From Candidatus Altimarinota bacterium (GTDB lineage Bacteria > Patescibacteriota > Gracilibacteria > UBA4473), in contig OZ246423.1 of the NCBI GenBank assembly GCA_965231215.1, positions 576,001 to 640,000 of the forward strand: a DNA stretch of 64,000 nucleotides, in the 5' to 3' direction. The notes below the pieces were generated by a model, which did not search any database, was not told the origin of the DNA, and saw only the letters and a list, made by a program, of their open reading frames with translations. The position numbers and the translations under genes were made by a program. Of the stretch, positions 23,645 to 64,000 are shown one piece after another. Within the stretch, counting starts at the first letter, position 1; each line of letters starts with the position of its first letter.

Positions 23645-24517
23645 CTACGGCCCTTTAGGCTTCCAAAAAACCTGATTGGGGATACGCAGATCCACGTGTT
23701 CTATATTCCCTGTATAAAGATTAATTTCATCAGCCACTAGTTCTAATTTTCTCATTTGAGGTTCTAGATCAAGCCGTAGATCAAACCAAAAAACGGTATC
23801 CTGAATAGACACCAAATGCAGCTCATGAGCTATCAAAAAAAGCCGGACTTCCTCAATTACAATCTTAAAATCATTATCAAATACGCCTCGTAAATATTCA
23901 ATCTGGTCCAAATACTCTTTTGAAGTAAGTTTGCTCCCTCCTGTTAGGGATTTTCCCCAGTTCATAAGTTTGATAACGGGGAGCTTTTGATTAGCCGACT
24001 CTCCTAAAATAACACCGTCTTCCGAGATTACAGAAAACCCAGCATCAAAATCATTAAGCACGGTAAATCTAGGGGGGGAAAGCGTTAGTTTCACCTCTAA
24101 GCTAGAGGGCCATTTTTCCGTTATATGAACCGCTCTAAACTCTGGGAAAGTGTTCACCAAAGTCTGGGTGAAAGCCGCTTTGTCCAAAAATATAAGGTTA
24201 GTTCCATAAAAATCTTCTAAAGCCTTTTCTACTGCTTCAGCATTGATATGCGGATTGTCTCGGACTACGACAATTTGTTTTAGATCAAAAAAGGGAGAAA
24301 CCGTCGCAAAAACGACAAACCCCGCCATAAAAATACAAAACAAAAAAAACAACGTAGAACCACGTAAAACCTTCATAATCTGCCTGATAATGACGGTTTT
24401 CGCAATCAAATTTAAAATACGGTTTCGGGCCGTCTTAGGCTTTTGTCGGATAGTTTGGTTTGAATCCAACAAAAAGTATTTTCGTCTTTGGCGAGAGTTT
24501 CGAGACACGAAATACAA
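23645..24517 (-). CDS. Cell division protein FtsQ/DivIB-like (POTRA); start uncertain
   Basis: Basic N-terminus, single TM, G.NL.FL POTRA segment, C-terminal HVDLRIPNQVF. Confidence 0.75.
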   Translation of the reverse strand: MYFVSRNSRQRRKYFLLDSNQTIRQKPKTARNRILNLIAKTVIIRQIMKVLRGSTLFFLFCIFMAGFVVFATVSPFFDLKQIVVVRDNPHINAEAVEKALEDFYGTNLIFLDKAAFTQTLVNTFPEFRAVHITEKWPSSLEVKLTLSPPRFTVLNDFDAGFSVISEDGVILGESANQKLPVIKLMNWGKSLTGGSKLTSKEYLDQIEYLRGVFDNDFKIVIEEVRLFLIAHELHLVSIQDTVFWFDLRLDLEPQMRKLELVADEINLYTGNIEHVDLRIPNQVFWKPKGP

Positions 24518-53450: not shown

Positions 53451-54530
53451 ATGTTTAATATTACTTTCAATCCCGGACCATCACAGATCTCCCCTGAAAC
53501 TAAAGATGATATGCGTCGAGCCATGGATGAGCGAATACTAGAAATCTCGCACCGAAGTGCTCAATTTTCTGACATTTCCAGAAATACCATTTCCCAATTA
53601 AGGAAATATCTGGGGATCCCTAAAGACTATAAAGTGTTTTATATGAGCTCGGCTACTGCCTGCTGGCATTCTATTTTGGCCAACGGTGTAGCACAAAAAT
53701 CCTTCCATTTTATAAACGGATCCTTTTCTGAAAAATTCGCCAAAGCGTCTCAAGCTTTGGGCAAAAAATTTGATGAAAATCGGGTTGAACTCGGTCAGCA
53801 AAATTCTGTTAAAAGTGTAGCAATAGAGGGGGACTGTGAATTGATTTCTCTCTGCTACAACGAAACCAGCACCGGCGTAATGATAGAAAACCAAGACCTA
53901 AAATATCTACGTGAAACCTATCGAAAAAAGTTACTCGCAGTAGATATTACCAGTTGTGCTGGCGCCATAAACGCTCCAATCGAAAAAGCCGATGTGTGGT
54001 ATTTTTCAGTCCAAAAGTGTTTTGGCCTCCCTCCAGGGCTTGGGATTTTGATCATCAGCCCTGAAGCCTTTGAGCGTTCAAAAGTATTGGCTAATGAAGG
54101 CAAAAATATGGCAGGAATTTGGCAGTGGAGCTTCCTTGAAAAAACCATGATAAGCAAAGACCACCAAACCCCGCAAACTCCGAATATACTAAATATTTTC
54201 CTCCTGGGAGAACAGTGTAAAAGATGGAATGCAGAAGGCGGCTTGAAGGCAAAAGAGAAGCTCACTCAAGACAAAGCTCAAATGATTAAACAGTGGGTAC
54301 AAAGCCATCCTCAACTTGAATTTTTTGTGTCGAATGAACGCTACAGATCTACCACCGCTTTAACGATTAAATCCACTCCAGAATTTATAGAAAAGATTCA
54401 TAAAACCTGCAGCGAAAATAAGATTGTGATGGGCAAAGGTTACGGGGATACTAAATCTTACGTGTTTCGGATTGCTAACTTTCCAAGTGTGACTAAAGCC
54501 AATTTAGAAACTTTATTTGATCTTATTTAG
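53451..54530 (+). CDS. serC: Phosphoserine aminotransferase (class V PLP)
   Basis: FNPGPSQ, ISHRS, NETSTGV, YFSVQKCFGLPPGLG; follows serA. Confidence 0.85.
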   Translation: MFNITFNPGPSQISPETKDDMRRAMDERILEISHRSAQFSDISRNTISQLRKYLGIPKDYKVFYMSSATACWHSILANGVAQKSFHFINGSFSEKFAKASQALGKKFDENRVELGQQNSVKSVAIEGDCELISLCYNETSTGVMIENQDLKYLRETYRKKLLAVDITSCAGAINAPIEKADVWYFSVQKCFGLPPGLGILIISPEAFERSKVLANEGKNMAGIWQWSFLEKTMISKDHQTPQTPNILNIFLLGEQCKRWNAEGGLKAKEKLTQDKAQMIKQWVQSHPQLEFFVSNERYRSTTALTIKSTPEFIEKIHKTCSENKIVMGKGYGDTKSYVFRIANFPSVTKANLETLFDLI

Positions 54531-55083
54531 CCCGTTCAACGTATTCACCACTCAAGGTATTCACCACGATTTTGTCTCCTTTTTCAATAAAGGGCGGCAC
54601 TCTAAGGGTGTAGCCTGTATCAATCGTAGCGTCTTTGGTCACGTTTCCAGCCGTATTCCCCTTTACGCCAGGTTCAGTTTCAATAATTTCAAAGGTCATT
54701 TTTGGCTGAACGCTTACATTGATAGGTTTTCCATCAAAGTACTGAATATCAGCGTCCATACCGTCAGATAAAAAGTTAGCGGTATCTCCTAATTGATCTT
54801 TGGTAAAGGTCATTTGCTCATAACTTTCTTGATCCATAAATTCATACGCCTCTCCATTGGCATACAAATATTGAGCTCTTTTATAGTTGATTTCAGCGGC
54901 TTCTACTTTTTCTGAACCAGAAAAAGTTCGCTCCATCGTAGAACCGGTCAAAAGGTTTTTCAGTTTAGTTTTCATGTTTCCTCCCTGACGAGCGGTTTTA
55001 CTAAACTGGTTCCAGGTAACCACGTACGGTTCCCCGTTCAATTGAATATATTGTCCGACTTTTAGATCTGTAATTCCAAGCAT
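54523..55083 (-). CDS. efp: Elongation factor P (Arg32 loop)
   Basis: KLKNLLTG, QYLY, FMDQESYEQ, TEPGVKGNTA, VPPFI, GEYVER. Confidence 0.95.
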   Translation of the reverse strand: MLGITDLKVGQYIQLNGEPYVVTWNQFSKTARQGGNMKTKLKNLLTGSTMERTFSGSEKVEAAEINYKRAQYLYANGEAYEFMDQESYEQMTFTKDQLGDTANFLSDGMDADIQYFDGKPINVSVQPKMTFEIIETEPGVKGNTAGNVTKDATIDTGYTLRVPPFIEKGDKIVVNTLSGEYVERAK

Positions 55084-55316
55084 GTAAAAAAATTAAAAAT
55101 AAAGGCAACACTCATAAGAAACTAAACCGCTGCAAATTTACATAATTTTAGAACAAAATCAAAATTCTCTAAAACAAGTTTGACCGATTCTTAAAGCCCT
55201 TTTATAAATTTTATATTTTGATTAAAGCTTAACGAGTTTTGAGTTTTAATCTTTTGTAAGAAATTCCGGCCAATTTGACTGGAAACACAAACAAAACTTT
55301 TTATTCTATACGCTGC

Positions 55317-55796
55317 ATGAACCCCCCTAAAAAAAATTCTACTCCTTCACCTCTTGAAATTCGAATCAAAACACTGGAATCAGAAATAGAGGCACTTCAA
55401 ACCTCTCTTGATCAGGCCAAAGAGGCTCAAGTGAGAGCCCTAGCAGATCTAGAAAATGTTCGTAGACGAGAAACCGCCGCCAAGGCTAATTGGACAAAAG
55501 AAGCCGTGAAACATTTTTTACAAAAAGTGATCCCCAGCTTCTTAGAACTTTCACTTGGAGCCGAACACTCTGAGGACGAAGCCATGAAAAAAGTAGTTGA
55601 AAAGTTCTTTACCGAACTACAATCTCAGGGGGTTGAATCCATTGCTCCAAACCCAGGAGACCCAATTGACCCAGAGCTTCATGAGGTGCTCATGATGGCC
55701 GAAGGCAAAAGTGGATGCGTGGTACAATGCTTAGAAGTGGGATGGCAATACCAAAGCCAAACGATTATCCCGGCCAAAGTTTCGGGCGCTCAGTAG
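55317..55796 (+). CDS. grpE: Nucleotide exchange factor GrpE
   Basis: RALADLENVRRR, DPELHEVL, GW.....I.PAKV. Confidence 0.9.
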   Translation: MNPPKKNSTPSPLEIRIKTLESEIEALQTSLDQAKEAQVRALADLENVRRRETAAKANWTKEAVKHFLQKVIPSFLELSLGAEHSEDEAMKKVVEKFFTELQSQGVESIAPNPGDPIDPELHEVLMMAEGKSGCVVQCLEVGWQYQSQTIIPAKVSGAQ

Positions 55797-55883
55797 TGAG
55801 GCCCTCTCGATAAACATTCCCAATCACAAGTGGAATGCCTCCTGGCCATAGGCCAGGAACCCAATCCTTAATAACCTATTACT

Positions 55884-55976
55884 ATGAAAATCAAAAAAGA
55901 AACCTGGTTCAAAATATTAGCCAGTGTAATACTATGTATCTTTATTGCTGGAACGGCCTTGATGTTTATGGTCTAG
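55884..55976 (+). CDS. 30-aa single-TM small protein
   Basis: MKIKKETWFKILASVILCIFIAGTALMFMV: basic N-terminus followed by a hydrophobic helix. Confidence 0.55.
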   Translation: MKIKKETWFKILASVILCIFIAGTALMFMV

Positions 55977-56012
55977 GCTTGTAATAACCCAAATTTTTAC
56001 TATACAAAGACC

Positions 56013-57092
56013 ATGTCTAAAGAACGCGTGGTCATTGGTTTGTCTGGCGGAGTTGATTCTTCAGTTTCGGCCAAACTTTTGGTAGATCAAGGCTATGAGG
56101 TCATTGGTGTTTTTATGAAAAACTGGGATGACAAAGATGAAGCCCACTGCCCAGCGGCCATAGACGCTGTTGATGCCCGACAGGTAGCCGAAAGTTTGGG
56201 GATTCGGTTTTATAGTTTTAACTTTGCTAAAGAATACTGGCGAGACGTATTTGATTATTTTTTGGAACAACACAAAAAATTTAGAACCCCTAATCCCGAT
56301 ATTCTGTGTAATAAGTATATTAAATTTAAAGTGTTTCTAGACGCGGCACAGAGTCTTGGCGCAGACAAAATAGCTACCGGGCACTATGCTAAAAATGTTT
56401 ATAACCAATCAACCAAACAATACGAACTCCAAGTCCCAAAAGACGGAAACAAAGATCAAACCTACTTCCTCTACACCCTCCAACAAGACTCGTTAGCCAA
56501 AACCCTTTTCCCACTGCAAGATTTAGACAAATCTGAAGTTCGGGCTCTCGCCAAAAAGTTTGGGTTTCACAACGCTGAAAAAAAGGATTCAACTGGGATT
56601 TGTTTTGTCGGGGAGCGAGACTACATGGAATTTCTCAAAAAATATCTTCACCAAAAACCGGGTAACATTGTGACCGAAAGCGGCCAAGTCTTGGGGCAGC
56701 ATATTGGACTGAGTTTCTATACCATAGGACAAAGAAAAAACCTCAATATTGGAGGCGTAAAAGGCGCTAAAGAAGCCCCTTGGTTTGTGCTATCGAAAGA
56801 CCTTAAAAAAAATGAAATTGTCGTGTGCCAAGATGACGATAACCCAAAACTTTTTGCATCAGAATTGATAGCTGAAAAACTCGACTGGGTTACCGGCACA
56901 CCACCTACAGAAAAAAAACTAACCGCCAAAATCCGATACCGACAAGACTTCCAAGACTGTAAAATGGAAGTAAAAAACGGCAAGGCCAAAGTGGCCTTTG
57001 ATAAACCACAAAGAGCCATTACTCCAGGACAGTCCATTGTATTCTATGACAAGGATAAGAAAGTTTGTTTAGGGGGAGGGGAAATTTGTTAA
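56013..57092 (+). CDS. mnmA: tRNA 2-thiouridine(34) synthase
   Basis: SGGVDSS, TPNPDILCN, ATGHY, KDQTYFL, KKDSTGICF. Confidence 0.98.
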   Translation: MSKERVVIGLSGGVDSSVSAKLLVDQGYEVIGVFMKNWDDKDEAHCPAAIDAVDARQVAESLGIRFYSFNFAKEYWRDVFDYFLEQHKKFRTPNPDILCNKYIKFKVFLDAAQSLGADKIATGHYAKNVYNQSTKQYELQVPKDGNKDQTYFLYTLQQDSLAKTLFPLQDLDKSEVRALAKKFGFHNAEKKDSTGICFVGERDYMEFLKKYLHQKPGNIVTESGQVLGQHIGLSFYTIGQRKNLNIGGVKGAKEAPWFVLSKDLKKNEIVVCQDDDNPKLFASELIAEKLDWVTGTPPTEKKLTAKIRYRQDFQDCKMEVKNGKAKVAFDKPQRAITPGQSIVFYDKDKKVCLGGGEIC

Positions 57093-57155
57093 CCAGGCTG
57101 AAGCTCTTCTGATTTCAAGTAAGGAAAAGCCATTTTCACTTATAATGATTATACA

Positions 57156-57180
57156 AAAAAGCCCTACTTCCGTAGGGCTC
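57156..57180 (-). terminator. Intrinsic terminator after glyA
   Basis: AGCCCTAC-ttcc-GTAGGGCT with an A tract on the + strand. Confidence 0.75.
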
Positions 57181-57200
57181 TAGTTGAATTTAAATTTTTC

Positions 57201-58478
57201 CTAAACAAAACTATCTGGAATTGGGAAGTCATGAGCTATTTGCCGAACTTCTTCCCGTATTTTTTCTTTTACGCCTGAATCATCTTTATTCCGCATAGCT
57301 TCAATCATAAGCTCAGCCACTCGTGCAGATTCTGCCTCTTTCAACCCACGAGTGGTAATAGCCGGCGTTCCAAATCGGATACCTGATGGATCAAACATAC
57401 TCCGCGGTTCATCAGCAATAGCGTTTTTATTCAGCGTAATGCCTACCTCGTCCAGTACGTCTTCCGCTTCTTGACCACTCACTCCAAGTGAACCAAAGAC
57501 ATCAGCCAAAAGTAAGTGGTTATCCGTTCCGCCTCCCATAAGCCTTACGCCTGCGTCTAGGAAAACCTTTTCCATAGCTTTGGCGTTTTTGAGGATCTGT
57601 TGACAGTGCTCTTTGAATTCTGGTTTGAGGGCTTCTCCAAAGGCAATCGCTCTTCCGGCAATAATATGCATATGTGGCCCTCCTTGCATTCCTGGGAAAA
57701 CCGATTTATCAATTTTTTTCGCAATTTCTGGATCTTCACGAGTCAGGATCATTCCTCCTCTCGGCCCTCGAAGCGTTTTGTGTGTCGTAGTCAGAATTAC
57801 ATCAAACCCATCATCAAATGGATTTCGCACGGCTCCTCCTGCAATAAGACCGGCAATATGTGCCATATCGGCTACAGCCAAAGCGCCAACTTCTCGAGCA
57901 ATCTCGACAAATTTAGCATAATCAAGTTCCCGAGAGTAGGCAGAAAATCCGGCCAAAATCATTTTGGGTTTTTCTTTCAATGCGACTTCTCGCATTGCTT
58001 CATAATCAATTTCTCCCGTGTCTGGATCTTTCATTTTGTACCGCACAAAGTTAAAAACTTTGGTAATATGTGTCACTGGGTGACCGTGCGTTAGGTGTCC
58101 TCCATGAGAAAGATCCATCCCCAGAATCGTATCCCCAGGTTCAAGTAGGGCAAAATAAGTAGCCAGGTTGGCCGGCGCTCCGGAATGAGGCTGCACGTTG
58201 GCAAACTTACAGTTAAAAAGTTTGCACGCTCGCTCAATACAGAGTTCTTCAAGTGGATCTGTAAAGTGTTGGCCTCCGTAGTAACGTTTACGAGGATAGC
58301 CTTCTGAATATTTATTGGTAAAGCAGCTTCCCATGGCCTCATGACAGGCTTTAGAAACATAATTTTCTGAGGGGATGAGCTCTAGACCGTTGGCTTCTCG
58401 ATCTTCTTCTCCACGAATAAGTTTGGCGATTGCTGCGTCTTGAGCTTCAATGTGTGGAATCGGTTGTGCAGTAGACAT
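57201..58478 (-). CDS. glyA: Serine hydroxymethyltransferase
   Basis: LELIPSENY, NKYSEGYP, HGGHLTHG, TTTHKTLRGPRGG, GTPAITTRG. Confidence 0.98.
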   Translation of the reverse strand: MSTAQPIPHIEAQDAAIAKLIRGEEDREANGLELIPSENYVSKACHEAMGSCFTNKYSEGYPRKRYYGGQHFTDPLEELCIERACKLFNCKFANVQPHSGAPANLATYFALLEPGDTILGMDLSHGGHLTHGHPVTHITKVFNFVRYKMKDPDTGEIDYEAMREVALKEKPKMILAGFSAYSRELDYAKFVEIAREVGALAVADMAHIAGLIAGGAVRNPFDDGFDVILTTTHKTLRGPRGGMILTREDPEIAKKIDKSVFPGMQGGPHMHIIAGRAIAFGEALKPEFKEHCQQILKNAKAMEKVFLDAGVRLMGGGTDNHLLLADVFGSLGVSGQEAEDVLDEVGITLNKNAIADEPRSMFDPSGIRFGTPAITTRGLKEAESARVAELMIEAMRNKDDSGVKEKIREEVRQIAHDFPIPDSFV

Positions 58479-58493
58479 AAGTTTTTGAAGTTT

Positions 58494-58527
58494 AAAAAAA
58501 TAAAAAATCGTCAGAACCTCCGACGAT
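58494..58527 (-). terminator. Leader terminator (attenuator) upstream of glyA
   Basis: ATCGTCGGA-ggt-TCTGACGAT followed by a long T tract. Confidence 0.75.
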
Positions 58528-58551
58528 AAAATTAAAGAGCAACTCCAAAAA

Positions 58552-58620
58552 CTAAACCTCTTTTCGACCTTTTCCAGAAGGTCTATTCGAGGTTAGATTT
58601 TTGGATGTTTTGTGGGTCAT
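58552..58620 (-). CDS. Putative leader peptide MTHKTSKNLTSNRPSGKGRKEV upstream of glyA
   Basis: 22-codon ORF ending AGA CCT TCT GGA AAA GGT CGA AAA GAG GTT TAG. Confidence 0.75.
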   Translation of the reverse strand: MTHKTSKNLTSNRPSGKGRKEV

Positions 58621-58630
58621 TTGTAGTCCG

Positions 58631-58659
58631 ATACTAAGCAAAACCCACATTCGATTCAA
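58631..58659 (-). promoter_or_regulatory. Promoter of the glyA leader
   Basis: TTGAAT-17 nt-TAGTAT, 10 nt before the leader ATG. Confidence 0.65.
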
Positions 58660-58675
58660 GATTTTTTTATGCTTT

Positions 58676-59362
58676 TTACAGAGACAAAAATAGAGCTTTG
58701 TTTTTCCCTAAGTCATAAGCGACTTTAGCAATTTCACATAATTTTTGATTGGTAAAAAAATGAGGCTGAAAAGCTTCAGCATCGATAATCCCGATAACCT
58801 TCCCCTCTTCATCAAAAATGGGGAGACAAAACTCGCTTTGAACCTGCACATCACAGGTGTAGTAAGGCCCTTCATATTGTTCGACACTTTGCACCACGAC
58901 CGCCTTACCAGAAAGCCCTACGGTAGAATTATTTGATCCCTTGGCAAACTCTGCATTTAGAGGAAACTCTCCTCGACTGAATCGACCATAATAAGCTTCT
59001 TTCAGCAAAATTGTCTCCCCTTCTAAATTCGTTGTCTTACGGTAAATACCAAGCCAATCAACGCCTGTAAGTTCTTGTAGGTGGGTTACAATTCGATTAA
59101 GCCTATAAAGCCTTAGCGTATTATCGTGTTTGGACAGATCAGCCTCTTCTAAACCAAGTGTTTTCTCCAAGCAATAAGGCTCTTGTGCCTTCAAACCGCA
59201 TCCTGCACCAGGAACAATCTCTGGGACAGAATAATGATAAAGTTGATTAATTTCTTCTTCAGAAAAATGCTCTACAGACTCCTGCAATGAGGTAGCAACA
59301 AACTTATTAAGGCTTTTTTTCACTGACAACTCTAAACCGATAGCCGATAGATAATGATCCAT
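58676..59362 (-). CDS. GAF-domain protein, free methionine-(R)-sulfoxide reductase (fRMsr/MsrC)-like
   Basis: VDWLGIY, YYTCD..VQSEFCLP, IGIIDAE. Confidence 0.7.
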   Translation of the reverse strand: MDHYLSAIGLELSVKKSLNKFVATSLQESVEHFSEEEINQLYHYSVPEIVPGAGCGLKAQEPYCLEKTLGLEEADLSKHDNTLRLYRLNRIVTHLQELTGVDWLGIYRKTTNLEGETILLKEAYYGRFSRGEFPLNAEFAKGSNNSTVGLSGKAVVVQSVEQYEGPYYTCDVQVQSEFCLPIFDEEGKVIGIIDAEAFQPHFFTNQKLCEIAKVAYDLGKNKALFLSL

Positions 59363-59368
59363 AATTTA

Positions 59369-60508
59369 TTAAGTTATTTGAGATAATATTTTTTGAGAAA
59401 ACTCTCCCTGGAATAAATTCACCCCATCCCTTGGAGTAATCGCTATCCCATTGTAAAAAATTCTTCCATTCCCAATTAATAAGGGAGAAAAGCTTTCATT
59501 AGTATTCACTGGATCTTGGGGAACCCGGCCTCCATTAACATTAAAAATAGGAATGGTCTTTGGTTTATAGCCGGTCGCCTGAATAATTACATCCGCCGCA
59601 TCTAGAACTTCTGAAATTTCTTCAACCTCACCGCCATAACCCAAGAATCTACTGTCTTCATCTTCTCCCGATTCTATTTTCTCATATCGGTCTTTTGCGT
59701 CCCCCCTTACTCCCTCAAACCTATGCACTTTTCCAGCATCAACATCTTCTTGTTTGTAGGCATAACTTGCATTTTCTGCTGCCGCTTCACTTGAATAATA
59801 CAATTTAAAGCCATTTCGATGACAAAGCGTAATAGGATCCAAAACTCCCGCAGCTCGGATATTATCAATACAAGAGAAGGCACTATGAGCCCCTCCAATG
59901 ACCACAATATTTTTGCCTTCAGCTCTCTCTCGAATTTCTTCATCGGAAAGACGTAAAAAATCATCAGAAAATACACGTTTATGGTCATTTTCTCCCAAGT
60001 TTAAAGGTTCTTGCTCGGCGCCAATCGAAAGAATCACATTTTTAGACACTACTATAGGCTCTCCGTCTGAGTCATAGGATACAACCTCTCCATCTTTATT
60101 AATTCGAAGGGAGCTAGCCTGAGCATCAATGATTGGGCTATTAGAATTCTGTGAAGACTTAAGAATCCCGGACAAAGCCCTCCCCACCTCAGCCTCAAAC
60201 CGTGCTATCGTTTTCAAGCAAATGATATCACCCCCTGTTTTACGAATTTCAGTGAGAAGATTACTTTTCCCCTCTAACTGATCTAAAACTGCTGCAGGAA
60301 CGGTTTCCAAAAAATCTGAAGCTGCAGAATTAGACCGAATTGAGTAACTTAATTTTCCCGATCCAAGATTTCTTTCAGGGCCAATCAATGCCAATCCTTT
60401 CTCCAATAGGGCCTCATACGAGAATCCGCCTTGCGATAAAGCTTTTAAAGGAATTCCTATGCCCGATGGACCGTTGCCGATTATCTGTGTTTCAAGTCTA
60501 TCTACCAT
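59369..60508 (-). CDS. FAD/NAD(P)-dependent oxidoreductase
   Basis: IIGNGPSG FAD motif, VVIGGAHSA second Rossmann motif, IQATGY. Confidence 0.75.
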   Translation of the reverse strand: MVDRLETQIIGNGPSGIGIPLKALSQGGFSYEALLEKGLALIGPERNLGSGKLSYSIRSNSAASDFLETVPAAVLDQLEGKSNLLTEIRKTGGDIICLKTIARFEAEVGRALSGILKSSQNSNSPIIDAQASSLRINKDGEVVSYDSDGEPIVVSKNVILSIGAEQEPLNLGENDHKRVFSDDFLRLSDEEIRERAEGKNIVVIGGAHSAFSCIDNIRAAGVLDPITLCHRNGFKLYYSSEAAAENASYAYKQEDVDAGKVHRFEGVRGDAKDRYEKIESGEDEDSRFLGYGGEVEEISEVLDAADVIIQATGYKPKTIPIFNVNGGRVPQDPVNTNESFSPLLIGNGRIFYNGIAITPRDGVNLFQGEFSQKILSQIT

Positions 60509-60579
60509 TTTAAAAAAAATTAAATAAAGAAATACCGCCCGAGTAGCCGGGGAAAACCTAGATCGTATTGATTAATTCC

Positions 60580-60660
60580 TTAACAACGTAGGTTCACCGC
60601 GACCACCGAAACGCTCATTTCGGTCATCATGTACATCATCAATTCTCGTAAGCTAAACAT
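60580..60660 (-). CDS. Met-rich leader peptide MFSLRELMMYMMTEMSVSVVAVNLRC
   Basis: ORF starts immediately after the methyltransferase stop (TAG-ATG); five internal Met codons; overlapping alternative hairpins. Confidence 0.7.
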   Translation of the reverse strand: MFSLRELMMYMMTEMSVSVVAVNLRC

Positions 60661-61281
60661 CTAAACTTTTGGGGTTAAACGAAAATATTGAGCTTCAGCT
60701 ATATCTGTTCCTGACACATTAACCGGCTTACGAACATAAGCTCGACCAATTCGTTCTACTCTATAACGATCGGTCACATAAGGCCGTGTCACCGTGCTGG
60801 CTGCATAAGAAATATCTTTCACATACAACGCCACCAATTCTTGCGCCGTCAGCGCCTCAATAACCCGACGTTGAATCGCACTGCCATCAACCCCACAGGC
60901 TGCAATATTTGGATTCTGTGGGAGGTTGGCCACAACCGTCCGCCCCTCTGCTCCCCACACATTATCGAGACTAAATTGACATTTCCCCCCTAAATTATTT
61001 GCAGTGGCATTATCTCGAGCAACACTCAATGAGGTTTTACACTTATCGGTGAGCAACACATTCTGCACTTGATCCTTAGTTGCCAACAGCAACCCTATGC
61101 ACCCCTTTCCACAACCAATATCTGCCATGTATGTAGACGGCCGAATCAATCCGTTTTGAATCAAATGCAATGCAGCCCTTCCAACATTTGAACGCTCGTG
61201 CACTCCAGGCAAGCTATGAAGTTCAAGCCCTAAATTTGGATCTGGTATATCTGGATAAATAGTAAGTGTGTCTAAAGGCAT
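60661..61281 (-). CDS. Class I SAM-dependent methyltransferase
   Basis: ADIGCGKGCIG, LLTD, ARDNA, VVANLPQ (NPP-like); start at ATG 61281 because the longer ORF runs through the terminator. Confidence 0.85.
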   Translation of the reverse strand: MPLDTLTIYPDIPDPNLGLELHSLPGVHERSNVGRAALHLIQNGLIRPSTYMADIGCGKGCIGLLLATKDQVQNVLLTDKCKTSLSVARDNATANNLGGKCQFSLDNVWGAEGRTVVANLPQNPNIAACGVDGSAIQRRVIEALTAQELVALYVKDISYAASTVTRPYVTDRYRVERIGRAYVRKPVNVSGTDIAEAQYFRLTPKV

Positions 61282-61298
61282 AAGGTAAAAATTTACAT

Positions 61299-61325
61299 AA
61301 AAAAACCCGCCGAAGTAGGCGGGTT
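61299..61325 (-). terminator. Attenuator terminator upstream of the methyltransferase
   Basis: AACCCGCC-tacttc-GGCGGGTT-TTTTT. Confidence 0.85.
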
Positions 61326-61351
61326 GGTACTTAGTTTCTTTTAATTTCTCA

Positions 61352-61408
61352 CTATGCACTAATCCGACCACTTCTCTTCAGAGAAGTCATCATCATAGTC
61401 ATAGCCAT
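61352..61408 (-). CDS. Met-rich leader peptide MAMTMMMTSLKRSGRISA
   Basis: ATG GCT ATG ACT ATG ATG ATG ACT...GCA TAG between a promoter and a terminator. Confidence 0.8.
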   Translation of the reverse strand: MAMTMMMTSLKRSGRISA

Positions 61409-61429
61409 GCTTAAATTTTGCACGGATTC

Positions 61430-61458
61430 AAAGTAATCTGAGTTTCCTTTTATGTCAA
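61430..61458 (-). promoter_or_regulatory. Promoter of the Met leader
   Basis: TTGACA-17 nt-TACTTT. Confidence 0.65.
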
Positions 61459-61477
61459 ATTTATTAAAATAAAAACA

Positions 61478-62080
61478 ATGTCAAAGCGCGTTAGAACCCA
61501 CACCAACCCACTCTCAATTCTGAAAGAAATCCATTTTGAGGGATTTGGTAATGACAAACCTCTATTTGTAGATGTAGGCGCTTTCAAGGGAGAATTTATG
61601 GATGAACTATCTACAAAATTTCCAGATCACAATTATATCTGTTTTGAACTCCGAACCCCTATAGCCAATGCCCTAAAAGAAAAATTCAAAGACCGAGATA
61701 ACTTTGTAGTCTTCGATGGGGATGCGGGAAGAAACTTTCGAAATATCGTAGAACCCTGTATCGCACAAGGCGCTAAAATCCAAAACATTTTTGTAAACTT
61801 TCCAGACCCTTGGTTCAAAGATAAACACAAAAAGCGGAGATTCATCACCGTTAAGTTTTTGAACGAAGTCGCCAAATGGCTCCCCAAAGAAACAGCCTTT
61901 ATTTTTCAAACAGATCAAAAATTTGTTTTTGATGAAACCCTCGAATATCTAGAAGAAACGCCCTATACCAATATTGAGTATTTTGAAGATTCCGCCTACG
62001 AAATCCCAACCGATTGGGAAAAAGTAAAATTAGCTCAAGGGGATCAAATTTGGAGAATGAAATTTTCTCAAAAAGCCTAA
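61478..62080 (+). CDS. trmB: tRNA (guanine-N7)-methyltransferase
   Basis: RVRTHTNP, VDVGAFKG, VNFPDPWFKDKHKKRR, QTD, PTDWE. Confidence 0.9.
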   Translation: MSKRVRTHTNPLSILKEIHFEGFGNDKPLFVDVGAFKGEFMDELSTKFPDHNYICFELRTPIANALKEKFKDRDNFVVFDGDAGRNFRNIVEPCIAQGAKIQNIFVNFPDPWFKDKHKKRRFITVKFLNEVAKWLPKETAFIFQTDQKFVFDETLEYLEETPYTNIEYFEDSAYEIPTDWEKVKLAQGDQIWRMKFSQKA

Positions 62081-62475
62081 CGCAACATCGGCAAACTTCC
62101 TACTAGTGAATTAACCGTCTTGGTTTCTCCCATGACTCCAACCCCAAGAACCGTAAGGTCTTTAAGTTTTTTACCTTTCACAGATTCAGCGTATTCTTCA
62201 TAGCTGGTAGTACATTGAGCTTCTTTGGTAAAAGGAATAAGTTTTAGTCCTAGTTCCTGAGCCTTGTAGCACAAAGATTCTAAAGAGACCTCTTTGGGTT
62301 TAAGAATAAGGATAGGAATCTTGGTGATAGGCAAAAACTCAACATCAGCTCCCTCAATTTTAGGTCCCACTAGTTCAGACTCTCCTGAAAAAATTCCAGA
62401 GCTAATACAGGCCACAGCATTGGCCAAAAACCCAGTTGGCAAAGAGGTATCGAGAACGATGGCAGATTTTTTCAT
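62077..62475 (-). CDS. DUF2000-family protein (PTH2-like fold)
   Basis: AIVLD..LP.G..ANA, PILIL, AQ.T.SYEEY, G....VN.L.GSLP.LR. Confidence 0.75.
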   Translation of the reverse strand: MKKSAIVLDTSLPTGFLANAVACISSGIFSGESELVGPKIEGADVEFLPITKIPILILKPKEVSLESLCYKAQELGLKLIPFTKEAQCTTSYEEYAESVKGKKLKDLTVLGVGVMGETKTVNSLVGSLPMLR

Positions 62476-62543
62476 TTTAATTTGTTAAAAAATTAACAGA
62501 CATGTTATAATTAGTACAAATGTTATAACCCGTCATAAATCTG

Positions 62544-63161
62544 ATGTCAAAAAATATTTCAACACTACTCCAAAAATACCCACTCATTACAACCTATGCC
62601 AACGCTGGGTTAGTGAACCTCAATGCCTTGGCCAGACTAATTCAACCAAATACTAAAAGCGTTTCCATTGAAGCCCTGGGGATGGAGCTCAGACGATATC
62701 TAGCAAAACAGGAAAAAACTAATATCCCAAAAGCTGACTTTTCGTCCTACGATTTAGAGGTGGTAAGTCGTAGCAACATAAAAGAACTTATCTTTGATAA
62801 AACTATTACAAACCGAAAATACTGCTTGAAACTAGCCACTGAGCTCCTAGAAAGTAAACACTTTTTTTCTCTGGTAGAGGGAGAAAAAGAAATAACCATT
62901 ATCACTGATGCTGATGGTAAAATTGTGGAGAGGTCAAAACCAGCCAATTTGCACCAAACTGAAAAGTTAGGTTTTATTTCTATAAACTTTCCTTTTGAAC
63001 TTAGGGCCAAACCTGGAATATACAGTGTACTGACATCTGCCTTAGCCGAGGAACACATTTCTATCCAGTCTTTCCATACTATAGGGGGAGAAATTATCAT
63101 CCTCGTTCACGAACAAGACCTCATCAAAACCCAAGAAATCTTTCAGTCTTTTTTCAATTAA
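62544..63161 (+). CDS. ACT-domain protein, paralog of 13876-14520
   Basis: GLVNLNALARLI, ALGMELRR, PGIYSVLTSALAEEHISI. Confidence 0.75.
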   Translation: MSKNISTLLQKYPLITTYANAGLVNLNALARLIQPNTKSVSIEALGMELRRYLAKQEKTNIPKADFSSYDLEVVSRSNIKELIFDKTITNRKYCLKLATELLESKHFFSLVEGEKEITIITDADGKIVERSKPANLHQTEKLGFISINFPFELRAKPGIYSVLTSALAEEHISIQSFHTIGGEIIILVHEQDLIKTQEIFQSFFN

Positions 63162-63192
63162 CAAAAAAGGGCGAAGAAAATTCACCCTTTTC
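63162..63192. terminator. Bidirectional terminator
   Basis: AAAAGGGCGAA-gaaaa-TTCACCCTTTT between convergent genes. Confidence 0.65.
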
Positions 63193-63211
63193 CCTAACAT
63201 TTACTTTTAAG

Positions 63212-64000
63212 CTATCGAGCTACTCCTTCAAAACGAGAATCCCTGATTACCACTACTTTCACCTGTCCAGGATACTGACAGTTTTGTTCTACCTTCGTGG
63301 CGATATCAATAGCGAGTTTTTCAGAGTCTAGATCGTTTACTTCTGCCGCATCTACAAAGACTCGAACTTCTCTCCCAGCTTGGATGGCAAATACTTTTTC
63401 AACGCCTTCAAAAGAACCAGCAATAGCTTCAAGTTCTTTAAGTCGCTTAATGTATTTATCCAGTGTCTCACGTCTCGCTCCAGGCCGAGAAGCTGAAATG
63501 GCATCAGCCGCTTGCAACACACGGGCTTCTAAAGATTCATACGGGAAGTCTTCATGATGTGATTTCATCGCTACAATTACAGGTTCTTCAATCCCAAATT
63601 TCTGCAAAATTTCCATCCCAATGACAGCATGTCCTCCTTCTACTTCATGCGAAACGGCTTTCCCGATATCGTGAAGGAGTCCGGCTTTTTTGAGCATTTC
63701 ACTATCGGCTCCAGGAAGGTAGTTGGCAATCCCTTCGGCAAGATAGGCTACTTCAATAGAGTGCTGTAATACATTCTGTCCGTAAGAAGACCGAAATCTA
63801 AGCTTACCAGTAAGTTTCAAAATTGGATCTGGAAGCCCCGTAACTCCAAGGTCATATGCTGCTTTCTGGCCCAGCTCAATAAGTAGCTTGTCTGCTTTTT
63901 GTTCTGCTTTTTCTACGGCTTCTTCAATTTTAGAAGGGTGAATCCGTCCATCCTTAATCAGGTTTTCTAAAGCAATTTTAGCAATAAATCTTCGGAAAGT
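63212..64000 (-). CDS. rny: Ribonuclease Y (5' end outside window)
   Basis: DGRIHP, RSSYGQNVLQHS, LLHDIGK, AADAISASRPGAR, AIQAGREVRV. Confidence 0.96.
   Translation of the reverse strand, partial: TFRRFIAKIALENLIKDGRIHPSKIEEAVEKAEQKADKLLIELGQKAAYDLGVTGLPDPILKLTGKLRFRSSYGQNVLQHSIEVAYLAEGIANYLPGADSEMLKKAGLLHDIGKAVSHEVEGGHAVIGMEILQKFGIEEPVIVAMKSHHEDFPYESLEARVLQAADAISASRPGARRETLDKYIKRLKELEAIAGSFEGVEKVFAIQAGREVRVFVDAAEVNDLDSEKLAIDIATKVEQNCQYPGQVKVVVIRDSRFEGVAR

What the first reader, a model, noticed from the sequence alone, without database searches (positions are those of the whole stretch)
60520..60660. Second, internal Met attenuator with covarying structure upstream of the oxidoreductase and fRMsr-like genes
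Seen in sequence: the uORF MFSLRELMMYMMTEMSVSVVAVNLRC starts directly after the methyltransferase stop. It has the same core as the first leader, ATGATGAC-[hairpin]-GTGGTCG, but a completely different inner stem (CGAAA/TTTCG vs TTCTC/GAGAA), i.e. compensatory change. The antiterminator GGTGGTCGCGGTGAACCTA : TAGGTTTTCCCCGGCTACT pairs at 17 of 19 positions. The terminator (CCGGCT-actc-GGGCGG + TATTTCTTT) is weak. Inference: tandem Met attenuators give a two-step response along one operon.
Basis: partly seen in the sequence, partly recalled or inferred. Interest (0 to 1): 0.8.

Follow-up and report, generated by a model that had tools for sequence, protein, structure and literature searches.

The report
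Second methionine attenuator with eroded terminator
A second methionine-sensing "leader peptide" switch really does sit inside this operon and has true relatives in sister genomes, but its stop signal has decayed here, so it probably adds little control of its own.

Summary
On the minus strand a 26-codon uORF (60660..60580, five internal Met codons) starts directly after the methyltransferase stop. It is followed by a P1 hairpin, a 17-of-19 antiterminator and a weak terminator.

It is not chance. It belongs to a leader-peptide attenuator scaffold found in 14 genomes of this small-genome (CPR-like) family and in 0 of 135 genomes of other families. The antiterminator covaries: 88% of cells paired, 20 of 28 pairs changed on both sides.

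Within the genus every genome has an L1-type leader in the same slot, between a trmB-like gene and SHMT. Three of five also have an L2-type leader downstream: adjacent to L1 in one, and after one gene in two. The tandem design is therefore conserved.

In this genome the L2 terminator keeps only 3 of 8 homologous pairs. Its hairpin folds no better than shuffles, and its longest T run is 3. A sister species carries the same oxidoreductase and fRMsr-like genes (97% identical) directly behind L1, without the methyltransferase or L2.

Verdict: L2 is a genuine attenuator copy, probably leaky or vestigial here. A two-step response is unproven. This scan has noted Met-codon leaders and tandem or internal leaders on other CPR DNA before. 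I found none in print.

The parts
61352..61408 (-). Leader 1 uORF (MAMTMMMTSLKRSGRISA, four internal Met codons)
   Evidence: The L1-type core GTCGGATTAGTG is present exactly once in each of the 5 genus genomes.
61304..61325 (-). Leader 1 intrinsic terminator (8 bp, 6 GC, then a T run)
   Evidence: Hairpin -14.3 kcal/mol. Leader fold z -5.84.
60661..61281 (-). Methyltransferase gene (206 aa, MTS small-domain class), lying between the two leaders
   Evidence: Pfam PF05175 at 1.7e-10. Start inferred. Only distant relatives in the family; the best is 35% identical, in G003, also directly behind an L1 leader.
60580..60660 (-). Leader 2 uORF, 26 codons plus TAA. Met codons at positions 8, 9, 11, 12 and 15. 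The ATG abuts the methyltransferase stop.
   Evidence: Homologous 26- and 27-codon uORFs occur in G002 and G001.
60600..60629 (-). P1 (1:2) hairpin. Its 5' arm is the Met-Met-Thr codons, and it has a conserved G-G mismatch.
   Evidence: -14.2 kcal/mol, z -3.05. 11 of 11 pairs intact. Relatives show different inner stems.
60536..60613 (-). Antiterminator (2:3) long hairpin. It overlaps the 3' arm of P1 and both arms of the terminator.
   Evidence: -31.8 kcal/mol, z -3.45. Covariation across 14 members. 93.8% of cells paired on an unfitted 3-sequence alignment.
60522..60551 (-). Eroded terminator (3:4): hairpin 60550..60535 plus an interrupted T-rich tail
   Evidence: -4.8 kcal/mol, tail TATTTCTTTA. 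z -0.19. 3 of 8 pairs in the homologous register. Listed as terminator-like by the loose scan.
59369..60508 (-). FAD/NAD(P)-type oxidoreductase gene (379 aa), the first gene behind leader 2
   Evidence: PF07992. A Met leader precedes oxidoreductase-like plus GAF gene pairs in G002 and G009 as well.
58676..59362 (-). GAF-domain protein, fRMsr-like (228 aa)
   Evidence: PF01590. The best solved relatives are 1f5m (YKL069W GAF protein, E 6.5e-6), 3ksg and 3ksf. That these are free Met-R-sulfoxide reductases is recalled, not shown by a call.
60509..61299 (.). 791-nt segment (methyltransferase plus leader 2) that is present or absent between co-occurring relatives
   Evidence: Absent in G004. DNA contigs of runs X1 and X2 hold both forms; the short form has 13 other letters in its place.

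Best explanation
Leader 2 is a genuine copy of a family-specific, ribosome-mediated (trp/his-type) transcription attenuator that senses charged Met-tRNA. It is the second unit of an L1-L2 series that is ancestral in this genus, and it is the unit that sits before the oxidoreductase and fRMsr-like gene pair. Intended mechanism (inferred): ribosomes finishing the methyltransferase gene restart at the abutting ATG. If they stall at the Met codons that form the 5' arm of P1, the 3' arm of P1 (GTGGTCG...) pairs with the 5' arm and loop of the terminator, and transcription continues. If they run on to the TAA, they cover that arm and the terminator should form. In this genome the sensor uORF, P1 and the antiterminator are intact, but the terminator stem and T tract have eroded. 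Leader 2 is therefore probably leaky or vestigial, and leader 1 provides the effective control of the whole operon.
For: Homology: BLAST of L2 against the 43 family genomes gives one significant hit besides itself, G002 at E 3.5e-10. That hit lies between an HTS-like gene and an oxidoreductase-like gene. Model R1 finds sense-strand members in 13 of 43 family genomes at E <= 0.0044, plus G009 in a smaller search. It finds 0 of 135 genomes of other families in the class. Eleven of the 14 members have Met runs. Their downstream genes are HTS (3), oxidoreductase-like (3), metG (1), SAM_HAT-like (1) and unknown (3). Structure: the antiterminator has 88.2% of cells paired and 20 of 28 pairs changed on both sides. 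0 of 500 shuffles reach this, and slid controls give 40-53%. P1 has at least nine different inner stems. Switch logic: of 17 leaders folded with a masked ribosome footprint, 2 were dropped because I set their ends wrongly. In all 15 others, at least one stall position gives the antiterminator and the stop-codon state gives the terminator. Series design: the L1 core occurs once in each of the 5 genus genomes, and an L2-type leader is present in 3 of the 5. The two are 16 nt apart in G001. Erosion: terminator pairs 3 of 8, against 8 of 8 and 7 of 8. Hairpin -4.8 kcal/mol, with only G027 weaker among the 16 leaders scored properly, and the longest T run is 3, against at least 5 in the others. z -0.19. 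G004 has the same downstream genes at 97% identity behind L1 alone.
Against: There is no expression data at all. Weak hairpins occur in other members that look functional (G027 -3.2, G032 -5.9 kcal/mol), so hairpin energy alone does not show loss of function. The loose terminator scan still lists the site. L2 here has the best P1 (11 of 11 pairs) and the most Met codons of the three genus copies, which is not what long neutral decay predicts. The antiterminator also wins in free RNA in four other members (G026, G009, G024, G027), so that feature is not peculiar to L2. The covariation alignment was fitted to the model's structure, the sequences are related, and the model was built from only three sequences.
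Confidence: 0.6

Rival explanations
1. Leader 2 is a fully working second Met attenuator. The methyltransferase answers to leader 1 alone, while the oxidoreductase and fRMsr-like genes need read-through of both leaders. That gives a graded, two-threshold response.
For: The sensor, P1 and antiterminator are all intact. The same gene-between-leaders layout, with a sound second terminator, exists in G002. Other members have hairpins as weak as -3.2 kcal/mol. The site passes the loose terminator scan.
Against: Only 3 of 8 homologous terminator pairs remain, the stem is no better than shuffles, and the T tract is broken into runs of 3. The antiterminator (-31.8 kcal/mol) dwarfs the terminator (about -5 to -6). 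G004 does without this leader.
Confidence: 0.28
2. Leader 2 now serves another purpose. The very stable long hairpin between the two genes may act as an RNA stability or processing element, or the abutting uORF may only pass ribosomes on. Either would set the ratio of methyltransferase to oxidoreductase without sensing Met.
For: The hairpin is strong (-31.8 kcal/mol) and dominates every folding state except a ribosome at the stop codon. The uORF start abuts the upstream stop.
Against: Nothing points to this specifically. The oxidoreductase start lies in an open A/T-rich stretch about 27 nt beyond the hairpin, in either fold. Every conserved feature is explained by the attenuator ancestry.
Confidence: 0.08
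3. The uORF and hairpins are a chance look-alike with no shared origin and no function.
For: The whole 166-nt region folds no better than shuffles (z -0.88).
Against: Homologues carry the same conserved blocks and covarying helices in 13 other genomes. The motif occurs only at the two leaders in the genome.
Confidence: 0.02

Closest known systems
Classical leader-peptide transcription attenuators of amino-acid operons (trpL, hisL, thrL, leuL, pheL; Rfam Trp_leader RF00513 and similar)
   Same: A short uORF has a cluster of codons for the sensed amino acid inside a 1:2 hairpin. A 2:3 antiterminator excludes a 3:4 terminator, and the downstream genes serve that amino acid.
   Different: The sensing codons are Met, for which I found no description in four literature searches. 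There is no Rfam match at L2 at E <= 1; only leader 1 touches Trp_leader, at 27.8 bits, below the gathering score of 41. The unit lies inside an operon with its uORF abutting the previous gene's stop. The terminator is eroded here.
Tandem attenuators of the Salmonella mgtCBR leader (mgtM and mgtP; PMC3641672, abstract read)
   Same: Two uORF-based attenuators act in series on one transcript.
   Different: Per its abstract, that pair answers two different signals (ATP and proline) and sits in one leader. Here both units carry Met codons, and in two of three genomes a gene lies between them.
Known methionine-sensing RNA controls: SAM riboswitches (S box) and the Met T-box (e.g. the S. aureus met leader, PMC3771891 and PMC7913692; search listing only)
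   Same: They give premature-termination control of Met-related genes.
   Different: Those sense SAM or uncharged tRNA directly through RNA. This one would sense charged Met-tRNA through ribosome speed.
Earlier notes of this scan on other DNA: Met-codon leaders in CPR genomes (e1-794035, e1-3317008, e1-1055459) and tandem or internal leader attenuators (e1-2065939, e1-3089233)
   Same: The same kind of element in the same broad group of bacteria. Their target genes (SAM-cleaving enzyme, metG) also appear among the members found here (G026, G020).
   Different: I did not check whether their loci belong to this scaffold. A look-up by sequence found no look-alike window.

Membership tests
Ribosome-mediated leader-peptide transcription attenuator (trp/his type) | Short uORF with clustered codons of the sensed amino acid | tested here: met
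   26 codons, with Met at positions 8, 9, 11, 12 and 15. Homologues also have Met clusters. Translation itself is not shown.
Ribosome-mediated leader-peptide transcription attenuator (trp/his type) | 1:2 hairpin that includes the sensing codons | tested here: met
   P1 at 60629..60600, -14.2 kcal/mol, z -3.05. 14 of 17 leaders have a hairpin closing at the same anchor, with differing inner stems.
Ribosome-mediated leader-peptide transcription attenuator (trp/his type) | 2:3 antiterminator that excludes both 1:2 and 3:4 | tested here: met
   Helix 60613..60536 overlaps both. 88.2% of cells paired, 20 of 28 pairs changed on both sides, 0 of 500 shuffles as high. 93.8% paired on the unfitted alignment.
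Ribosome-mediated leader-peptide transcription attenuator (trp/his type) | 3:4 intrinsic terminator (GC-rich stem followed by a U run) | tested here: inconclusive
   It passes the loose scan. However, the hairpin is -4.8 kcal/mol, z is -0.19, 3 of 8 homologous pairs remain and the longest T run is 3. The homologues in G002 and G001 meet the criterion.
Ribosome-mediated leader-peptide transcription attenuator (trp/his type) | Controlled genes serve the sensed amino acid | tested here: met
   An fRMsr-like GAF protein lies downstream. Members elsewhere precede HTS, metG and SAM_HAT-like genes. The oxidoreductase and methyltransferase have no assigned role.
Ribosome-mediated leader-peptide transcription attenuator (trp/his type) | Read-through rises when the amino acid is scarce and depends on the sensing codons | not testable with these tools
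   No RNA holder is listed, and the organism is uncultured.
Rfam leader families (Trp_leader and others) | Covariance-model match at or above the gathering score | tested here: not met
   There is no match at L2 at E <= 1 in 54000..64000. Leader 1 scores 27.8 bits against a gathering score of 41 for Trp_leader.
Attenuator scaffold of this bacterial family (model R1, L2 type) | Conserved blocks after P1 and before the terminator, shared with independent genomes | tested here: met
   BLAST hit to G002 at E 3.5e-10. Invariant blocks appear in alignments A2 and A5. R1 was built partly from L2 itself, so its own score is circular.
Tandem attenuators in series | Two uORF attenuators on one transcript, both upstream of the regulated genes | tested here: met
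   The order is L1, then the methyltransferase, then L2, with no promoter-like site between them on this strand. The same series occurs in G001 and G002. That they form one transcript is inferred.

The most novel reading that the evidence does not exclude
This bacterial family owns one modular attenuator scaffold that it retargets by swapping the sensing codons (Met in 11 members, Cys in 1, Trp in 2). In this genus it deploys the scaffold as a same-signal L1-L2 series. The short spacer between the units serves as a slot into which different Met-stress genes have been recruited: a methyltransferase here and an HTS-like gene in G002. Those genes then answer to one gate, and the oxidoreductase/fRMsr pair answers to two. 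On this reading, leader 2 here still works as a deliberately leaky second gate.
Probability: 0.3. Interest if true: 0.72.

Novelty: new variant of a known kind. Interest (0 to 1): 0.6.

Why it matters
Textbook leader-peptide attenuators cover Trp, His, Thr, Leu, Ile/Val and Phe. Methionine is thought to be sensed through SAM riboswitches, T-boxes or MetJ.

A conserved Met-codon attenuator family would add a new specificity. It would also show that tiny-genome, uncultured bacteria, which have few regulators, rely on ribosome-coupled RNA switches.

The genus comparison shows how such switches evolve:
- by duplication into a series;
- by genes inserted between the units;
- by erosion of one unit;
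- by recent exchange of the whole locus between co-occurring species.

The leaders also label unannotated genes as methionine-stress genes: the methyltransferase, the oxidoreductase, the HTS-like genes and three unknown proteins. That gives a starting point for working out their function.

Tried and rejected
- **RNA evidence.** No RNA holder was listed for 59300..61500. Only DNA contigs could be laid.
- **More L2 homologues.** A degenerate 33-letter pattern scanned over metagenome contigs gave one contig, with the same sequence and gene order as the G002 locus, so nothing new.
- **BLAST of L2 in the family.** Only G002 was significant. The G036 hit (E 0.02) lies in coding-looking sequence without a leader. 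The G010 hit (E 0.058) proved to be a real leader.
- **Spurious model hits set aside.** These were G028 (E 0.98, coding-like), the window hit at 24002..24071 (E 0.51) and the antisense hit on the G002 leader.
- **Masked folding.** The leader ends of G032 and G013 were set too early by my script, so those 2 of 17 leaders are uninformative. The terminator picked for G061 was not the right hairpin; one search gives -8.8 kcal/mol for it.
- **Protein function.** The word-based search with the oxidoreductase found 2 proteins, one of them its own. It has no solved relative. The Atlas gave only generic FAD/NAD(P) and MTS names.
- **Alternative genetic code (TGA as Gly).** Rejected. Table 11 gives 795 frames of at least 200 aa, covering about 82% of the genome, and 92 of them end in TGA.
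- **Hybrid terminator idea.** I considered that the L2 terminator is a hybrid with an L1-like loop and 3' arm, made by recombination. The similarity is suggestive, but it is also explained by shared pairing with GTGGTCG. This is left open.
- **Gain or loss of the 791-nt segment.** Whether it was gained here or lost in G004 could not be decided.
- **Formal covariation counts for P1 and the terminator.** Not made across the family, because stem lengths differ. Only per-sequence folds and the 3-sequence count (no double changes) exist.
- **Supplementary files of papers.** None were consulted.

Full report
**Where and what.** The window is G000:C1:576001-640000, from a single-contig genome of 1.33 Mb with 41% G+C. 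Earlier notes of this scan call the organism CPR/Patescibacteria-like; I did not test that label. The standard genetic code fits.

Everything relevant lies on the minus strand. In order:
- leader 1: uORF 61408..61352 and terminator 61325..61304;
- a 206-aa MTS-type methyltransferase, 61281..60661;
- leader 2: uORF 60660..60580;
- a 379-aa FAD/NAD(P) oxidoreductase, 60508..59369;
- a 228-aa GAF protein, 59362..58676;
- a further leader with a terminator at 58527..58507;
- SHMT, 58478..57201.

The best solved relatives of the GAF protein are 1f5m, 3ksg and 3ksf. I recall these as free methionine-R-sulfoxide reductases, so "fRMsr-like" is reasonable.

**Observation.**
- The uORF starts at the base after the methyltransferase TAG.
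- The shared core with different inner stems is real. The motif occurs only at these two places in the genome.
- The 19-nt antiterminator arms pair at 17 positions (helix).
- The terminator is weak.
- Single-sequence folding is only moderately informative. P1 and the antiterminator have z about -3. The terminator has z -0.19. The whole region has z -0.88.

**Relatives.**
- BLAST of L2 against all 43 genomes of the family gave one clear hit, in G002 of the same genus.
- A covariance model built from L2, the G002 copy and a G010 leader found sense-strand matches in 13 of 43 family genomes at E <= 0.0044. A smaller search added G009.
- A class-wide sample of 151 genomes gave matches only in this family, and in 0 of 135 genomes elsewhere.
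- All 14 members share one plan: a uORF with clustered sensing codons, a P1 hairpin closed by GAT/GTC around a G-G mismatch, a conserved block, a long hairpin, and a terminator.
- Eleven carry Met runs. Their downstream genes are HTS/metA-like (G001, G032, G033), oxidoreductase-like (G000, G002, G009), metG (G020), a SAM_HAT-like gene (G026) and unknown proteins (G010, G013, G027).
- One member has three Cys codons (G024) and two have Trp-Trp (G061, G035).

**Structure and logic.**
- On the model-fitted alignment of 14 members, the long hairpin has 88.2% of cells paired and 20 of 28 pairs changed on both sides. No shuffle of 500 reaches this, and slid controls give 40-53%.
- On a plain MAFFT alignment of the three genus copies it is 93.8% paired, against 35-55% when slid. 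With three sequences the shuffle control is uninformative.
- I folded 17 leaders with a ribosome footprint masked and dropped 2 for wrongly set ends. In all 15 others, at least one stall position at a sensing codon gives the antiterminator, and a ribosome at the stop codon gives the terminator.
- In free RNA the terminator forms in 10 of the 15. The antiterminator or another fold wins in 5: this L2, G026, G009, G024 and G027.

This is the classical 1:2 / 2:3 / 3:4 logic. All of it is inferred from sequence.

**The genus slot.** The L1-type core occurs exactly once in each of the five genus genomes, always beside a divergent trmB-like gene and upstream of SHMT. Ls denotes the separate leader before SHMT.

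| Genome | Layout |
|---|---|
| G000 | L1, methyltransferase, L2, oxidoreductase, GAF, Ls, SHMT |
| G002 | L1, HTS-like, L2, oxidoreductase-like, GAF, Ls, SHMT |
| G001 | L1 and L2 16 nt apart, HTS, Ls, SHMT |
| G003 | L1, methyltransferase-like (35% identical), Ls, SHMT |
| G004 | L1, oxidoreductase, GAF, HTS-like, SHMT |

Two Met leaders in series are therefore a conserved design in 3 of 5 genomes. L2 precedes the oxidoreductase-GAF pair in two of them.

**Why I think L2 is weakened here.**
- In the homologous register the L2 terminator keeps 3 of 8 pairs, against 8 of 8 in G002 and 7 of 8 in G001.
- Its best hairpin next to a T-rich tail is -4.8 kcal/mol. Of the 16 leaders scored properly, only G027 is weaker.
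- It is the only leader whose T tract is broken into runs of 3.
- P1 (11 of 11 pairs) and the antiterminator are fully intact.
- G004 carries the oxidoreductase and GAF genes at 97% nucleotide identity directly behind L1. The 791-nt segment 60509..61299 is replaced there by 13 letters.
- Both forms occur in the same metagenome runs: depth about 299 against 284 in X1, and 4.6 against 47 in X2. These are contigs, so the depths are rough.

**Points against erosion.**
- Other members have weak hairpins.
- The site passes the loose terminator scan.
- The Met codons and P1 show no decay.

I therefore put 0.6 on "genuine but leaky or vestigial" and 0.28 on "fully working second gate".

**What is known.** Four full-text searches found no Met-codon leader-peptide attenuator and none in CPR/Patescibacteria. 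In Naville and Gautheret 2010 (PMC2965389; passages read), methionine appears only in connection with SAM riboswitches and a T-box. The nearest published tandem case is the Salmonella mgtCBR leader, whose two units answer different signals (PMC3641672, abstract). Rfam has no match at L2. This scan has noted Met-codon leaders and tandem or internal leaders on other CPR DNA, so the kind is not new to the scan. A look-up by sequence found no look-alike of this one.

**Verdict.** This is a new variant of a known kind. Its interest is moderate to high because of the family and genus picture, not because of this particular, probably weakened, copy.

Noticed in passing
window 58552..58620 (-), terminator 58507..58527 (-); also L039, L062, L073, L046: A separate uORF before SHMT (MTHKTSKNLTSNRPSGKGRKEV) ends in RP[S/V]GKGRKEV-stop in G000, G001, G002, G003 and G061 (another genus). 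There are many synonymous codon differences, so the peptide itself looks conserved. It is a candidate regulatory, possibly arrest-type, leader peptide for glyA.
   Followed up: partly
window 58751..about 63100: G000 and G004 share 63-76% nucleotide identity along the syntenic backbone. This roughly 4.4-kb stretch (most of the GAF gene, the oxidoreductase, leader 1, the trmB-like gene, DUF2000 and an ACT-domain gene) is 93-100% identical in 200-nt windows. That points to recent exchange of the Met locus between two species that co-occur in the same samples.
   Followed up: partly
L045 (G024), L046 (G061), L047 (G035): The same attenuator scaffold carries Cys-Cys-Cys or Trp-Trp in place of Met runs. 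It sits before a 316-aa protein without a Pfam hit (G024) and before small ORFs of roughly 70-80 aa (G061, G035). This suggests retargeting of one scaffold by codon swaps.
   Followed up: partly
window 61297..61398 (-): Leader 1 gives a sub-threshold match to Rfam Trp_leader (27.8 bits, gathering score 41, E 0.027). The match is driven mainly by the terminator; the uORF has Met codons and no Trp codons.
   Followed up: yes
window 58676..58750 (-) and L005 1816..2886: The last 75 nt of the GAF gene differ between G000 and G004. G004 has an extra 356-aa HTS-like gene between the GAF gene and SHMT that G000 lacks at this site. Loose contig ends at 58751 in runs X1-X3 fit the same breakpoint.
   Followed up: partly
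P1 hairpins of the family (for example window 60600..60629): A G-G mismatch flanked by GAT/GTC pairs is kept in P1 of most members, although the inner stems differ. The reason is unknown.
   Followed up: no
window 61430..61458 (-); L004, L039, L062 upstream of their L1 leaders: By eye, a TTGAC(A/T/G) hexamer followed 17 nt later by a TA..TT hexamer precedes leader 1 in four genus genomes. The consensus scan did not list it.
   Followed up: no
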